64,000 nucleotides of DNA from Escherichia coli (lineage in GTDB: Bacteria; Pseudomonadota; Gammaproteobacteria; Enterobacterales; Enterobacteriaceae): assembly GCF_048403405.1 (NCBI RefSeq), contig NZ_CP183129.1; one strand, written 5' to 3'. Positions 21,001-24,000 of the stretch are shown one piece after another (the stretch's first letter is position 1; the number at the start of each line of letters is the position of its first letter). The position numbers were made by a program.

Positions 21001-24000
21001 TCCAGTTCAGGCAGAATGTCACGGTACAGGGCTTCATACTCTGCATCCCTGTCCCGGCTCTCGCCCACCCCGGGCAGGTCAGTGATAACCATGCTGTAAC
21101 CGTGACCACTCAGACGGAAGCGCTGCACTTCCCGGGTGCCGGCGTGAACATCACTGACCGGTGTGACCTCCCCCTGAAACAGGGCATTACAGAGTGAAGA
21201 TTTACCGGCCCCGCTTTTACCCATAATGCCAATCACGGGCTCGTGACGGGTGAGTTTGCGCAGATGTTCCAGGATGTGACGGGAAAGCGAGTAAGGCAGG
21301 GAGGAGAGCGGTTTTTCAATTGCCTCAATGGCATCAGACGGATTCATACATGTATTCCCGGTGAAAAAAGACAAAACCCCGCACACCGGAAAGGTGGCGG
21401 GGGATCCACGGAGATAATATCTGTCTGAAATTGTTTGGAATCGATGGGGATGTTGAGTATTAACATGAAGGAGGGCAGGAGTTATCCGTTATTGGGTGAT
21501 ATCCTTCCATGAAAATACGCGGTTATTGTTAAACAGCAGGCTGATTACTCCGTAAAGGAGAAAAATATTCATCTTGCAGCCTGATTATCAGGTGTGTTTA
21601 TGTTTACTGAGGTGAGTATTTTTCAGTATATTGTCGGGGCAGTCAGTGGGAGATATTAAATTTACGTTTAGAGTTATCTTGCTTCTGCTGTGTATTTTTA
21701 TAAGAGTGCGCACGTAATGATATCTGTTGATACCATGTTGTTAAGTGTTTCCCTTCCGGGTCATGCGTACTTGCAAAATGGCATCTGAATCGATCACGGT
21801 TTGGCCAAACCGTGATCGAATAGAGAGGAATACGCACGTAATGATTAAATGCTTTTGTTACACCATTCTTCCGGCATGAATATTTATCCAGTTCCCTTTT
21901 TTATTTGTGTAGTGATACTGTCGGAATAGCGTTCAGTAATGTGAAGTGTCCTGTAAAAAAACTTTAATAAATGTGTCATCCTGGTCAGGAAATATCTGCT
22001 GAGATATTATTAGTTGGTGGTGTTTTTACTGAGTAATAGCTGGCTTTTAATTCCTGAACTGAAATACTGTCGCTCGTCAGGGTTTAATTAAAACTGGATG
22101 ATGATGTGAAAATGAAGGCTGGTTTTTGTGTTTGTCGAAGAAGTGTTATTTTAATCCATTCTCATCATTGGCTGGCGATTATACAGAAGTATTTGAAGAA
22201 AAAATGTTGCATTTTATCTGTGTCAGCAGGGAGGAAGTATTTTATTGATGTATCAGTATTAAATGGTTTTTGTTATTTATAAAAATGTCATCCTGTCCAT
22301 AGAATATTGTACTCAGCATTCAGTGCAGGAACTGTCATCTTCTTTATTTTATTCTTCTTCAGGAGGGCAGTTTTCTGAAAGCGTTACTCCGGGGAAACTG
22401 TTTATGTTTATTCCCGGCAGGAAACCCGTACCTGCAATACCCTGGATGATGCTTTTTGCTGGTACGTTGTTGTGTGAAAATTAATCAACACGTGTGTTCC
22501 GGAGAGCGCCCGTAGACGCACAGATTCATTCTAACATTCTTTAGCGACAAAATACCGAATGGTTATTATTTAATCTGAAAATCGACAGAAATTTTTATCC
22601 TGTATTGATTCTGCTGCTATTTTTGCTATTAGTAGCAATAGTTGCGGTACTTTATGTTCTGTGTGTTGTGAGGTCATTATGCCATACTTTCAGTATCCTG
22701 ATGAGTTTCCCCTGAGCTCGCTGCCTCCACTCATTCGTGATGCCGTTATTGAAGCTCAGCAAATCACGCAGGCTCCCCTGGGGCTTGTGGCAGCATCTGC
22801 CCTGGGCGCTGTTTCACTTGTCTGCCAGAATCTGATTGATGTCTGCAGACTGAATACACTGCGGGGGCCGGTTTCTCTTTTCTTACTGACGCTTGCTGAG
22901 TCCGGAGAACGAAAAACCGCAGTGGACAAATTATTAATGGAGCCCCTGTACCAGCAGGAGATGCTGTTATATTCCAGACACAAAAATGAACTGACGACAT
23001 GGAAAAATAAGGAAGAGCTTTTAAAGGCGCAGAAAAAAGCATTGTTGTCAAAACTGAATAAAGAACTCCGCAAAGGCGCGGATGAGTCAGAAACGCTCAG
23101 ACAACTGGAAGCGCTTCAGAAAAACAGAGGGGAAAAACCTGTAAGATATAAATTCATTTTTAATGATGCCACGACAGCAGCAATTAAAGATCAGCTTTGT
23201 GGTCAGTGGCGTTCAGTGGGTATCATGTCTGATGAAGCCGGTATAATATTTGATGGGTATACCCTGTCTGAGCTGCCTTTTATTAACAAAATGTGGGATG
23301 GCTCCGTATTGTCGGTGGACAGAAAGAATGAACCCGAACAGATGATTGAAAATGCCAGAATGACATTATCCCTCATGGTACAACCCGGTCTTTTTGACCG
23401 ATATATGGAGCGAAAAGGTTCTGTTGCCAGGGACAGTGGTTTTCTTGCCCGTTGTCTAATCAGTAAACCTGCCACCACGCAGGGGAAACGCTTTATTAAC
23501 GGAGCTGTGACCCCGGGAGGATCATTAACGGCATTTCATGAACGATTAATGGAACTGGCCAGAGGCAGTATTGAAAAATCCAGTAAGGATGAACGTTATT
23601 GTCTGCATTTTTCTCCTGAAGCGCAAAAAATATTTATTGATCACTATAATGTTCTGGAGCAGGATTTGTCTCCTTCCGGACCCTTAAGCCAGTTTCGGGG
23701 GCATGTTTCAAAAAAAACAGAAAACATTGCGAGAATTGCTGCGTTATTGCAGTATTTCAGTCAGGGTGAAGGGAAAATCTCTGCCGATATCATGACGTCT
23801 GCTGTCGTAATAAGTTCGTGGTACACAGATGAATATAAAAAATTATTTGCGTTACCTGATGAATCTGAACTGCAGCTGCAGGACGCCCGGGAGCTGCTCG
23901 ACTGGCTCATTGAGGAGTGCCGCGGAGAATGCCCGCCCCGTGTCAGGAAAAATTATATTCTCCAGTGTGGCCCGGGCCGGTTCCGGAACAGGAAAAAGCT

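What the first reader, a model, noticed from the sequence alone, without database searches (positions are those of the whole stretch)
21387..22678. 1.3-kb AT-rich, ORF-poor gap between the yeeP-like GTPase and the DUF3987 gene
There is no convincing ORF across about 1.3 kb of strongly AT-rich sequence; the only tracked ORF (22263..22484) has poor coding character. Such regions in horizontally acquired islands commonly hold H-NS-silenced promoters, small RNAs or module junctions.
Basis: seen in the sequence. Interest (0 to 1): 0.3.

Follow-up and report, generated by a model that had tools for sequence, protein, structure and literature searches.

The report
Non-coding spacer between two island modules
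The 1.3-kb AT-rich stretch is a real gene-free spacer at the seam between two modules of an E. coli pathogenicity island: about 1.15 kb drifts freely, and only its two short ends, the control regions of the flanking GTPase and YfjI genes, are conserved.

Summary
The window is E. coli CFT073, and the interval 21348-22678 lies between a GTPase gene (minus strand) and a YfjI/DUF3987 gene (plus strand) that point away from each other. It is 38% GC. No gene is annotated there in any listed row from about 1,900 E. coli genomes.

The middle ~1.15 kb (21455-22610) behaves as unconstrained filler:
- It diverges 12-22% between lineages, against 11-15% at fourfold-degenerate sites of the flanking genes.
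- It carries indels, a 71-nt palindromic insertion, and an IS3 insertion and a microsatellite in relatives.
- No ORF is conserved, substitutions show no codon periodicity, and there are no protein or Rfam matches, no iterons and no DnaA boxes.

Only the ends are conserved:
- **Left end (21348-21441, minus strand):** a promoter-like box, then a covarying GC hairpin with a U-run, then a helix covering the ribosome-binding site. It precedes GTPase paralogues in 4,247 of 5,426 E. coli genomes and in other genera.
- **Right end (22616-22642):** a nested GCTATT/AATAGC palindrome, conserved upstream of yfjI in other Enterobacterales genera.

A small RNA in the body is not supported. H-NS binding could not be tested. 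Overall this is ordinary, with two unannotated regulatory motifs.

The parts
20475..21347 (-). GTPase family protein CDS (YeeP/YkfA/YfjP family); left flank, shown for context
   Evidence: RefSeq annotation WP_001069668.1; ORF list
21348..21441 (-). Conserved GTPase promoter-leader block: promoter-like box, hairpin plus U-run, SD-covering helix
   Evidence: It is the only hit in the 64-kb window for covariance model R1, which was built from ykfA-type leaders (21349-21441, 35.2 bits, E 5.6e-4). The block is shared with GTPase paralogues in 4,247 of 5,426 E. coli genomes in many upstream contexts.
21435..21440 (-). -35-like hexamer TTCCAA
   Evidence: It aligns with the TTGAAA of ykfA and yfjP. 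Genomic SELEX assigned TTGAAA-15-TATCAT as the constitutive RpoD promoter for ykfA and yfjPQ (PMC3946193).
21414..21419 (-). -10-like hexamer TATTAT, 15-nt spacer from the -35
   Evidence: In 26 leaders the five consensus-matching positions of the hexamer are invariant or nearly invariant (four invariant, the last at least 90%); only the non-consensus position varies C/T. Same literature assignment as above.
21377..21402 (-). GC-rich hairpin P2 (CCCCGCCACC-UUUCC-GGUG-U-GCGGGG)
   Evidence: Single-sequence fold and terminator scan. In the ykfA-type alignment the equivalent hairpin is 96.4% paired, with 6 of 12 pairs changed on both sides. Across subfamilies the sequence differs but the pairing is kept, e.g. 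GC:15 against CG:9 at one pair.
21364..21376 (-). U-run UUUUGUCUUUUUU directly 3' of P2; together with P2 an intrinsic-terminator signature
   Evidence: Sequence; scan; present in nearly all aligned leaders
21405..21413 (-). 5' strand of helix P1 (CUCCGUGGA, anti-SD-like)
   Evidence: Pairs with 21357-21365 in the MFE fold. Cognate against non-cognate duplex energy is -9.46 against -6.91 kcal/mol, permutation p<1e-4. The pair next to the invariant UGAA/UUCA is CG:8, GC:9, UA:3.
21355..21365 (-). 3' strand of P1 (UUCACCGGG, 21357-21365) plus the SD-like GGGAA (21355-21359), which overlaps it by three bases
21441..21454 (-). Junction: remnant of the last codons of a 383-aa hypothetical gene that sits upstream of the GTPase in other islands
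   Evidence: Homology to IAI39 (L024), where that gene is intact (3085-4236), runs to 21454 and stops there
21455..22610 (.). AT-rich filler, 37.5% GC, G+T-rich on the plus strand
   Evidence: Divergence 12-22% against 11-15% at fourfold sites. Many non-triplet indels. No ORF of 20 aa or more is kept in all three lineages. No codon periodicity. No Pfam hit. Six-frame translation has no homologue among 5.8 billion proteins. No iterons. No DnaA boxes.
21770..21840 (.). 71-nt insertion flanked by a CGTA direct repeat (21766-21769 and 21837-21840), containing a perfect 30-bp palindrome at 21790-21819
   Evidence: Absent from L028, which is 98% identical, and from lineages B and C. The palindrome is unique in the window. 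About 92% identical copies lie on many plasmids, e.g. L006 2501-2578 between a TPR gene and a TetR gene.
22263..22484 (+).
   Evidence: A 7-nt insertion gives a stop at codon 40 in L028 and L029. It is frameshifted in lineages B and C. No Pfam hit. Its 26-codon tail (22404-22484) stays open but shows 8 non-synonymous to 1 synonymous change between lineages (counted by eye from the alignment).
22616..22642 (+). Nested palindrome GCTATT-TTT-GCTATT|AGTAGC-AATAGT upstream of yfjI (operator-like)
   Evidence: The block TGCTATTT..GCTATTAATAGCGGAATAGC is conserved about 35-75 nt upstream of the yfjI ATG. It is seen in loci from Pectobacterium, Dickeya, Brenneria, Siccibacter, Mangrovibacter, Kluyvera, Erwinia and others whose YfjI is only about 50% identical, while the surrounding DNA is not conserved.
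22670..22674 (+). yfjI Shine-Dalgarno GAGGT
   Evidence: Invariant in all 13 aligned loci
22679..24169 (+). YfjI family (DUF3987) CDS; right flank, shown for context
   Evidence: RefSeq WP_001296390.1; Pfam PF13148, E 1.2e-94

Best explanation
The interval 21348-22678 is a non-coding divergent intergenic region. It marks the seam between two conserved modules of a CP4-like E. coli genomic island: the GTPase-Ag43 arm, read leftward, and the YfjI arm, read rightward. It has three parts.

(1) Left ~95 nt. This is the GTPase gene's own control region. It holds a sigma-70-type box (TTCCAA-15-TATTAT), then a GC hairpin with a U-run that has the form of an intrinsic terminator, then a helix pairing a CU-rich segment with the ribosome-binding region. 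The likely role is to block transcription and translation that enter from the variable upstream DNA, so that the GTPase depends on its own weak promoter.

(2) Middle ~1.15 kb. This is filler with no sequence-specific function. It drifts at or above the synonymous rate and tolerates deletions, a microsatellite, a 71-nt palindromic insertion and an IS element. If it does anything, it acts through bulk AT-richness, for example as a landing pad for H-NS-type silencers and as physical separation of two divergent promoters.

(3) Right ~65 nt. This is the yfjI control region: a four-half-site GCTATT/AATAGC palindrome, probably an operator for a DNA-binding protein, followed by a strong SD.

Shown here: absence of coding, the drift rate, the homology breakpoints, and conservation and covariation of the two end elements. 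Inferred only: actual promoter use, termination, H-NS binding, and which protein binds the palindrome.
For: Identity and context: 100% match to CFT073, with GTPase (-) and YfjI (+) flanks. The same module order is seen in relatives L002-L005 and L028-L030.

Non-coding body: no annotation in any listed genome. No conserved ORF. No 3-nt periodicity of substitutions. Longest ORF equals the shuffle expectation. No Pfam hit. No protein homologue for any frame. No remnant of the alternative upstream gene or of alpA.

Drift: pairwise gap identity is 0.88 (A-B), 0.78 (A-C) and 0.84 (B-C), against fourfold-site divergence of 0.11-0.15 in both flanking genes. Mosaic blocks point to recombination inside the gap. 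Insertions and deletions.

Junctions.

GTPase leader. RpoD SELEX promoter assignment for the K-12 paralogues ykfA and yfjPQ: PMC3946193.

yfjI palindrome.
Against: No expression, termination or protein-binding data exist for this locus, and none could be found. Term-seq and in vitro run-off supplements did not list ykfA, yfjP or yeeP.

If the TATTAT box is the -10, the predicted start (about 21406-21407) lies inside the 5' strand of helix P1. P1 could then form only in transcripts that read in from upstream. The promoter reading and the P1 reading therefore fit together only under the insulator model, which is untested.

Within the ykfA subfamily P1 shows no double substitutions. Its covariation comes from comparisons between subfamilies, on an alignment fitted to the model.

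Fourfold sites are an imperfect neutral yardstick. Only three gap lineages exist, and only two to the right of about 22350, so short conserved elements in the filler could be missed.

The filler persists at 1.2-1.3 kb in about 1,800 genomes rather than being deleted. That could hint at some length or composition constraint.
Confidence: 0.7

Rival explanations
1. The filler encodes a small or long non-coding RNA, for example a minus-strand transcript that ends at the conserved hairpin at 21377-21402, or a long yfjI 5' UTR with regulatory structure.
For: A strong terminator-type hairpin sits at the minus-strand end of the gap. One window (21540-21659) folds better than shuffles on both strands, z about -4. 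The 200-nt block 22100-22300 is 97-100% identical between lineages A and B.
Against: The hairpin belongs to the GTPase leader and occurs with unrelated upstream DNA. The 22100-22300 block is only about 73% identical to lineage C, so it reflects recombination, not constraint. The 21540-21659 helix is largely A-run/T-run pairing and is mismatched in lineage B. There is no Rfam hit. Promoter-like and terminator-like sites match shuffle expectation. Divergence is at or above the synonymous rate, with many indels.
Confidence: 0.08
2. The filler is the decayed remnant of one or more genes (a pseudogene), so the gap is a dead cargo slot.
For: In other islands the position upstream of the GTPase holds real genes, such as the 383-aa hypothetical in IAI39 and perR or rnlAB in K-12. 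The last codons of the 383-aa gene survive at 21441-21454. The strong G+T strand bias (GC skew +0.18, AT skew -0.13) is unexplained.
Against: tblastn with the 383-aa protein, AlpA and other neighbouring proteins finds nothing in the gap of any lineage. A six-frame translation has no hit at E<=0.01 among 5.8 billion proteins. There is no codon periodicity. ORF lengths are as random.
Confidence: 0.1
3. The AT-rich region is the replication origin used by the adjacent YfjI/DUF3987 protein, as in satellites whose origin lies next to the primase/replicase gene.
For: DUF3987 is used as the primase marker of int-alpA-primase satellites (PMC10803314). The region is AT-rich and directly adjoins yfjI. 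A conserved multi-half-site palindrome lies at 22616-22642.
Against: No k-mer of 8-10 nt recurs more than in shuffles, and 7-mers show only a mild excess. There are no DnaA boxes in the gap. The filler is absent upstream of yfjI in other genera, where only the palindrome is shared. The filler tolerates IS and other insertions.
Confidence: 0.05
4. A small protein is encoded in the gap: the 26-codon ORF at 22404-22484, or the hydrophobic 36-aa ORF at 22605-22715.
For: The 26-codon frame has the same start and stop positions in lineages A, B and C (alignment; frames). It is preceded by GGGGA in lineage A.
Against: There are 8 non-synonymous changes to 1 synonymous change between lineages (by eye, from the alignment). 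The SD-like run is weaker in lineage B. The hydrophobic ORF has an in-frame TGA in lineages B and C (read from the alignment) and simply reflects T-rich DNA. Neither ORF has a Pfam or protein match.
Confidence: 0.03

Closest known systems
Constitutive RpoD promoters of the K-12 paralogues ykfA and yfjPQ (Shimada et al. 2014, PMC3946193)
   Same: Same gene family and the same box. K-12 has TTGAAA-15-TATCAT in the perR-ykfA and rnlB-yfjP spacers. The window has TTCCAA-15-TATTAT in the aligned position.
   Different: The SELEX paper reports holoenzyme binding to the spacer plus a sequence-based promoter call, not a mapped start site. The passages retrieved list only the promoter box, not the downstream hairpin, U-run or SD-covering helix. 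The window copy itself is untested.
Intrinsic terminators in 5' leaders (premature termination, as surveyed by 3'-end mapping in E. coli, PMC7815308)
   Same: A GC hairpin plus U-run placed between a promoter-like box and the start codon. The structure is conserved by covariation.
   Different: No ligand, leader peptide or antiterminator alternative was identified. No 3'-end data are available for this gene family. The terminator may instead serve mainly to stop read-through from the upstream gene.
AT-rich, H-NS-bound intergenic DNA of horizontally acquired islands (xenogeneic silencing; my own knowledge of the Navarre/Lucchini 2006 literature)
   Same: GC is 38% against about 50% for the host. 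The region lies in an island that also encodes an Hha-family protein.
   Different: Binding is not shown. The region is not the most AT-rich part of the window. Promoter-like sites are not enriched over shuffles.
IsrC/IS102 and the agn43 leader just downstream of the GTPase gene
   Same: Another non-coding regulatory stretch in the same module, at 20166-20371 (Rfam RF00124, 259.7 bits).
   Different: It lies outside the gap, has an Rfam family, and shares no sequence with the gap.
Origins next to pri-rep genes in SaPI/PICI-type satellites (my own knowledge)
   Same: AT-rich DNA adjacent to a primase-family (DUF3987) gene in an int/alpA-type element.
   Different: No iterons flank an AT-rich core. 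The filler is lineage-specific and freely interrupted.

Membership tests
Protein-coding gene or recognisable pseudogene | An ORF kept open across relatives | tested here: not met
   No ORF of 20 aa or more inside 21455-22610 keeps its start, frame and stop in lineages A, B and C
Protein-coding gene or recognisable pseudogene | Codon-position bias of substitutions | tested here: not met
   Substitutions are evenly spread over the three phases in every sub-region (chi-square p 0.07-1.0)
Protein-coding gene or recognisable pseudogene | Homology to known proteins or domains | tested here: not met
   Pfam: none. Six-frame query against 5.8 billion proteins: none at E<=0.01. tblastn with neighbouring proteins: none.
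Small RNA gene within the filler | Match to a curated RNA family | tested here: not met
   Rfam 15 at E<=1 over 19500-25500 returns only IS102, outside the gap
Small RNA gene within the filler | Conservation above the neutral rate, or conserved structure | tested here: not met
   Gap divergence is at or above fourfold-site divergence. Folding z-scores are unremarkable except at the GTPase leader hairpin, one A/T-run helix and the palindromic insertion.
Small RNA gene within the filler | A discrete transcript with its own promoter and terminator | not testable with these tools
   Consensus scans give 4 promoter-like and 2 terminator-like sites, against 3.8 and 1.6 in shuffles. No transcriptome data are available.
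Intrinsic (Rho-independent) terminator, 21364-21402 minus strand | GC-rich stem-loop immediately followed by a U-tract | tested here: met
   10-bp stem with one bulge, 5-nt loop, then UUUUGUCUUUUUU
Intrinsic (Rho-independent) terminator, 21364-21402 minus strand | Structure maintained by compensatory change in relatives | tested here: met
   6 of 12 pairs have double changes and 96.4% of cells are paired; shuffles reached the observed value in 0/500 (covariation score, cells changed on both sides) and 2/500 (pairs changed on both sides). The stem sequence differs but the position is the same in yeeP-type and ykfA-type leaders.
Intrinsic (Rho-independent) terminator, 21364-21402 minus strand | Termination of transcription in vivo or in vitro | not testable with these tools
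   No 3'-end data were found for ykfA, yfjP or yeeP
Sigma-70 promoter of the GTPase gene | -35 and -10 hexamers with 15-19 nt spacing | tested here: inconclusive
   TTCCAA-15-TATTAT scores 8 of 12, below the scan threshold. The consensus-matching positions are invariant or nearly invariant across 26 leaders.
Sigma-70 promoter of the GTPase gene | RNA polymerase holoenzyme binding or a mapped start site | not testable with these tools
   Binding is reported for the K-12 paralogue spacers only (PMC3946193). There is none for this copy.
H-NS-silenced AT-rich island DNA | AT content well above the host average | tested here: met
   GC 0.383 against 0.497 for the window
H-NS-silenced AT-rich island DNA | H-NS/StpA/Hha occupancy and derepression in hns mutants | not testable with these tools
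   No ChIP or expression data are accessible
Replication origin (iteron type) | Arrays of repeated binding sites flanking an AT-rich core; DnaA boxes | tested here: not met
   No k-mer of 8-10 nt recurs more than in shuffles; 7-mers occurring 3 or more times show a mild excess, 30 against 15.5 +/- 4.4. No DnaA box with up to 1 mismatch lies in the gap.
Module junction of a mosaic genomic island | Homology to alternative contexts ends abruptly at defined points | tested here: met
   The GTPase block ends at 21436-21454 in five unrelated contexts. The yfjI block begins at about 22612. Flank divergence is discordant: win against L028 is 13% at GTPase fourfold sites but 0.9% at YfjI fourfold sites.
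Palindromic operator upstream of yfjI | Inverted-repeat half-sites conserved beyond the surrounding DNA | tested here: met
   TGCTATTT, TAGC and T.GC are invariant in 13 loci while the neighbouring columns vary. There is one copy per locus.
Palindromic operator upstream of yfjI | A cognate DNA-binding protein | not testable with these tools
   Candidates are the AlpA-like HTH (24948-25208), the adjacent 199-aa protein, and YfjI itself. None was tested.

The most novel reading that the evidence does not exclude
The two conserved ends may be undescribed regulatory devices of the CP4-like island backbone. (a) The GTPase leader could be a 'double-lock insulator'. Its terminator hairpin and anti-SD helix would silence every transcript entering from the variable cargo upstream. 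Transcripts from its own promoter start inside the anti-SD strand and so would escape the translational lock. (b) The GCTATT/AATAGC four-site palindrome could be the operator, or the origin-recognition site, of the YfjI (DUF3987) replication-type protein. The sequence is kept from E. coli to Pectobacterium and Erwinia.
Probability: 0.3. Interest if true: 0.45.

Novelty: new member of a known kind. Interest (0 to 1): 0.25.

Why it matters
Taken by itself the gap is an ordinary intergenic seam, and that is the main result: there is no hidden gene or RNA to chase in its 1.15-kb body.

The useful by-products are two short, strongly conserved and unannotated control elements. They mark the boundaries of the island's modules. 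One precedes a GTPase gene family present in about 78% of complete E. coli genomes. The other precedes yfjI-type genes across Enterobacterales.

They give precise handles for asking how these very common cryptic-prophage-like islands keep their backbone genes insulated from swapped-in cargo. They also help to define module boundaries when annotating such islands.

Tried and rejected
- **Decayed 383-aa gene:** tblastn with the IAI39 protein found nothing beyond the last few codons.
- **Remnant of alpA or other canonical yfjI-upstream genes:** no tblastn hits.
- **Any coding remnant:** a six-frame query against 5.8 billion proteins gave no hit; Pfam on all gap ORFs gave none.
- **The 100%-conserved block 22100-22300 as a functional core:** rejected, because lineage C is only about 73% identical there, so it is a recombination patch.
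- **Iterons or an origin:** k-mer recurrence of 8-10-mers no higher than in shuffles, 7-mers only mildly in excess; no DnaA boxes.
- **Hydrophobic 36-aa ORF at 22605-22715 as a type I toxin:** it has a stop codon in other lineages.
- **YfjI homologues from other genera** (the genome-contig scan): these were sought to find more copies of the gap. They all have the canonical int-alpA-yfjI layout without the filler. They were useless for the filler but revealed the palindrome.
- **RNAalifold on a MAFFT alignment of yeeP-type leaders:** it mis-aligned the hairpin and is not used.
- **Literature:** searches for old CFT073 locus tags, yeeP/yfjI, CFT073 sRNA/TSS papers and the palindrome sequence found nothing on this locus. 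Term-seq and in vitro run-off supplements did not list ykfA, yfjP or yeeP.
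Full report
**Identity and anatomy.** The interval matches E. 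coli CFT073 (NC_004431, about 3.49 Mb) at 100%. RefSeq annotation places it between a GTPase family gene and a YfjI family gene. The GTPase gene is at window 20475-21347 on the minus strand, upstream of agn43. The YfjI (DUF3987) gene is at 22679-24169 on the plus strand. The two genes diverge, so the non-coding interval is 21348-22678 (1,331 nt). GC is 0.383, against 0.589 for the GTPase CDS and 0.460 for the YfjI CDS. The longest ORF, 73 aa at 22263-22484, is no longer than in dinucleotide shuffles (78 +/- 19.5 aa).

**Distribution.** Megablast finds the interval in 1,915 of 5,426 complete E. coli genomes, with features reported as 'none' in every listed row. The module order is constant: Gp2-family gene, zinc-ribbon gene, Hha, AlpA-like HTH, hypothetical, YfjI, gap, GTPase, Ag43. 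Three sequence lineages exist:
- A: CFT073, L028, L029.
- B: L002, L003, L030, L004.
- C: L005.

**The body of the gap drifts.** A seven-sequence alignment shows the whole gap is alignable. Identity is 0.88 for A against B, 0.78 for A against C and 0.84 for B against C. Fourfold-degenerate sites of the flanking genes differ by only 0.11-0.15 for the same pairs. The gap therefore changes at or above the synonymous rate.

It also carries many indels that are not multiples of three:
- a 73-nt deletion and a (GCCCTGC)5 microsatellite in lineage C;
- a 29-nt deletion in lineage B;
- a 7-nt insertion in L028 and L029;
- a 71-nt insertion in CFT073 and L029 that is absent from the 98%-identical L028;
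- an IS3-family insertion in L004.

A block at 22100-22300 looked perfectly conserved between A and B. It is only about 73% identical to C. To the right of about 22350, B and C are nearly identical to each other. The pattern is recombinational mosaic, not constraint. Discordant flank divergence fits this: CFT073 against L028 is 13% at GTPase fourfold sites but 0.9% at YfjI fourfold sites.

**No gene, RNA family or origin in the body.**
- No ORF of 20 aa or more inside the filler keeps its start, frame and stop in all lineages.
- Substitutions show no codon periodicity.
- Pfam finds nothing in the gap ORFs.
- A concatenated six-frame translation of 21442-22615 has no hit at E<=0.01 among 5.8 billion proteins.
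- tblastn with the 383-aa protein that occupies this position in other islands, with AlpA and with other neighbours is negative.
- Rfam reports only IS102/IsrC at 20166-20371, outside the gap.
- Promoter-like and terminator-like consensus hits match shuffle expectation.
- Sliding-window folding stands out only at the GTPase leader hairpin, at an A-run/T-run helix at 21540-21659 that is imperfect in lineage B, and at the palindromic insertion.
- 8- to 10-mers recur no more than in shuffles and 7-mers show only a mild excess, and no DnaA box lies in the gap.
- A 26-codon frame (22404-22484) stays open in all lineages. It shows 8 non-synonymous changes to 1 synonymous change (counted by eye on the alignment), so I do not regard it as a gene.

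**Left end: a conserved GTPase promoter-leader.** A search with the lineage C gap hit 4,247 of 5,426 genomes, with up to 7 places per genome. Most hits cover only the first 90-100 nt next to the GTPase start. Comparison with five unrelated upstream contexts shows that homology always stops at window 21436-21454. In IAI39 a 383-aa gene ends 85 nt before the GTPase ATG. Its last codons are still recognisable at 21441-21454. That marks the junction.

The same architecture recurs in front of GTPase homologues down to about 50% identity. These include K-12 ykfA, a Salmonella IncHI plasmid gene, and 20-odd loci from viral contigs. The architecture has four elements:
- An AT-rich box. In a 26-sequence alignment the consensus-matching positions of a TAT(C/T)AT hexamer are invariant or nearly invariant and only the non-consensus position varies. 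A TTGAAA/TTCCAA hexamer lies 15 nt upstream.
- A GC-rich hairpin whose sequence differs between subfamilies.
- A T-run.
- An SD and the ATG.

Shimada et al. assigned exactly 'TTGAAA-15-TATCAT' as the constitutive RpoD promoter in the perR-ykfA and rnlB-yfjP spacers from genomic SELEX (PMC3946193). The window equivalent is TTCCAA (21440-21435), a 15-nt spacer, then TATTAT (21419-21414).

The hairpin (window 21402-21377, followed by UUUUGUCUUUUUU at 21376-21364) is well supported. In the ykfA-type alignment it is 96.4% paired, with 6 of 12 pairs changed on both sides. It exceeds the shuffles on covariation score, percentage of cells paired and both measures of change on both sides (0 to 2 of 500 shuffles reach the observed values) but not on further pair types (128/500), and it exceeds every slid control on all five measures. 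A covariance model built only from ykfA-type leaders finds one hit in the 64-kb window, at 21349-21441 on the minus strand (35.2 bits, E 5.6e-4). On the model alignment the hairpin pairs are kept with several pair types.

A second helix, P1, joins the CU-rich segment just 5' of the hairpin to the region from the end of the U-run into the SD. The evidence for P1 is weaker:
- Cognate strand pairs bind better than swapped pairs: -9.46 against -6.91 kcal/mol, permutation p<1e-4.
- The pair next to the invariant UGAA/UUCA is C-G in 8 leaders, G-C in 9 and U-A in 3.
- Within the ykfA subfamily alone, P1 has no double substitutions.
- If TATTAT is the -10, the predicted start lies inside the 5' strand of P1.

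The reading that reconciles these points is an insulator. Transcripts entering from the variable upstream DNA meet a terminator and, if they read through, have their SD sequestered. Transcripts from the gene's own promoter lack the anti-SD strand. This is inference, and no start-site or 3'-end data could be found. Rfam has no family for this leader.

**Right end: a conserved palindrome upstream of yfjI.** The genome-contig scan with YfjI returned 16 loci from other Enterobacterales, with about 50% protein identity. All have the canonical int-alpA-yfjI layout and lack the filler. Aligning the 120 nt upstream of their start codons with the window reveals an invariant block about 35-75 nt before the ATG: TGCTATTT(C/T)TGCTATTAATAGCGGAATAGC. 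This is two direct and two inverted GCTATT half-sites. An invariant GAGGT SD follows, and the rest is not conserved. The window copy is GCTATT (22616-22621), GCTATT (22625-22630), AGTAGC (22631-22636) and AATAGT (22637-22642). There is one copy per locus. Central positions vary without compensation, which argues for a protein-binding site rather than an RNA or DNA hairpin. No paper containing the sequence was found. DUF3987 is used as the primase marker of int-alpA-primase satellites (PMC10803314). Candidate binders therefore include the AlpA-like regulator and YfjI itself.

**Synthesis.** The gap has three parts: about 95 nt of GTPase control region, about 1.15 kb of drifting AT-rich filler of unknown origin, and about 65 nt of yfjI control region. 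'Promoters' is plausible only at the ends. A small RNA in the body is not supported. H-NS binding remains an untested inference from composition.

The filler is G+T-rich on the plus strand (GC skew +0.18, AT skew -0.13). Minus-strand transcripts through it would therefore be C-rich and G-poor. From general knowledge of Rho, that would favour Rho loading before they reach the conserved terminator. This is noted but not tested.

**Verdict.** The feature is real but ordinary. Its value lies in two short unannotated regulatory motifs, not in the AT-rich body.

Noticed in passing
window 21766-21840 (palindrome 21790-21819); L006 2501-2578: A 71-nt insertion flanked by CGTA repeats holds a perfect 30-bp palindrome, TCGATCACGGTTTGG/CCAAACCGTGATCGA, with two GATC sites. 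It is present in CFT073 and L029 but absent from the 98%-identical L028. Copies about 92% identical sit on many E. coli and Klebsiella plasmids. In ETEC plasmid L006 the copy lies between a TPR gene and a TetR-family gene. It may be a small mobile repeat or a captured operator.
   Followed up: partly
window 22616-22642; L008-L023 about 60-75 nt upstream of yfjI: A four-half-site GCTATT/AATAGC palindrome is conserved upstream of yfjI-family genes across Enterobacterales genera, although the proteins are only about 50% identical. It is not annotated, and no paper containing the sequence was found.
   Followed up: partly
window 21348-21441 (minus); L033 1399-1503 (K-12 ykfA); L032 1398-1503; many L035-L065: A conserved promoter-like box, covarying hairpin with U-run, and SD-pairing helix precede YeeP/YkfA/YfjP-family GTPase genes. 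There is no Rfam family. The predicted -10 places the start inside the 5' strand of the SD-pairing helix, which is unexplained unless the helix acts only on read-in transcripts.
   Followed up: yes
L050 2346-2442, L064 2361-2431, L037 2355-2460, L051 2464-2558, L056 2224-2303, L058 3714-3793: The leader covariance model also gives weak hits just downstream of several GTPase genes. Each is a hairpin, a T-run and an SD in front of the next gene. This suggests a repeated terminator-then-SD layout between backbone genes of these islands.
   Followed up: no
window 20166-20371 (minus): Full-length Rfam IS102/IsrC match (259.7 bits) between the GTPase gene and agn43, as in K-12 CP4-44.
   Followed up: no
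L024 3085-4236 (IAI39); L026 3085-4001; window 21441-21454: In other islands a 383-aa hypothetical gene with 51% GC occupies the slot directly upstream of the GTPase. In L026 this arrangement lacks yfjI altogether. CFT073 keeps only its last few codons, with the stop codon mutated.
   Followed up: partly
L024 and L025, 1-1910: In some islands the GTPase gene is followed by a dynamin-family gene instead of Ag43. From my own knowledge this pairing resembles LeoABC/Eleos-type defence loci. It was not examined.
   Followed up: no
window 21455-22610: There is a strong strand asymmetry in non-coding DNA: G 23% against C 16%, and T 35% against A 27% on the plus strand (GC skew +0.18, AT skew -0.13). 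Only 37 of 627 equal-length windows in the 64 kb have as large a GC skew. The cause is unknown.
   Followed up: partly
L005 about 5880-5915: A (GCCCTGC)5 heptamer microsatellite is inserted in the lineage C version of the gap, at the position of window ~21893.
   Followed up: no
window around 38401-39700: The most AT-rich 1.3-kb stretch of the window (35% GC) lies here, not in the gap under study. It was not examined.
   Followed up: no
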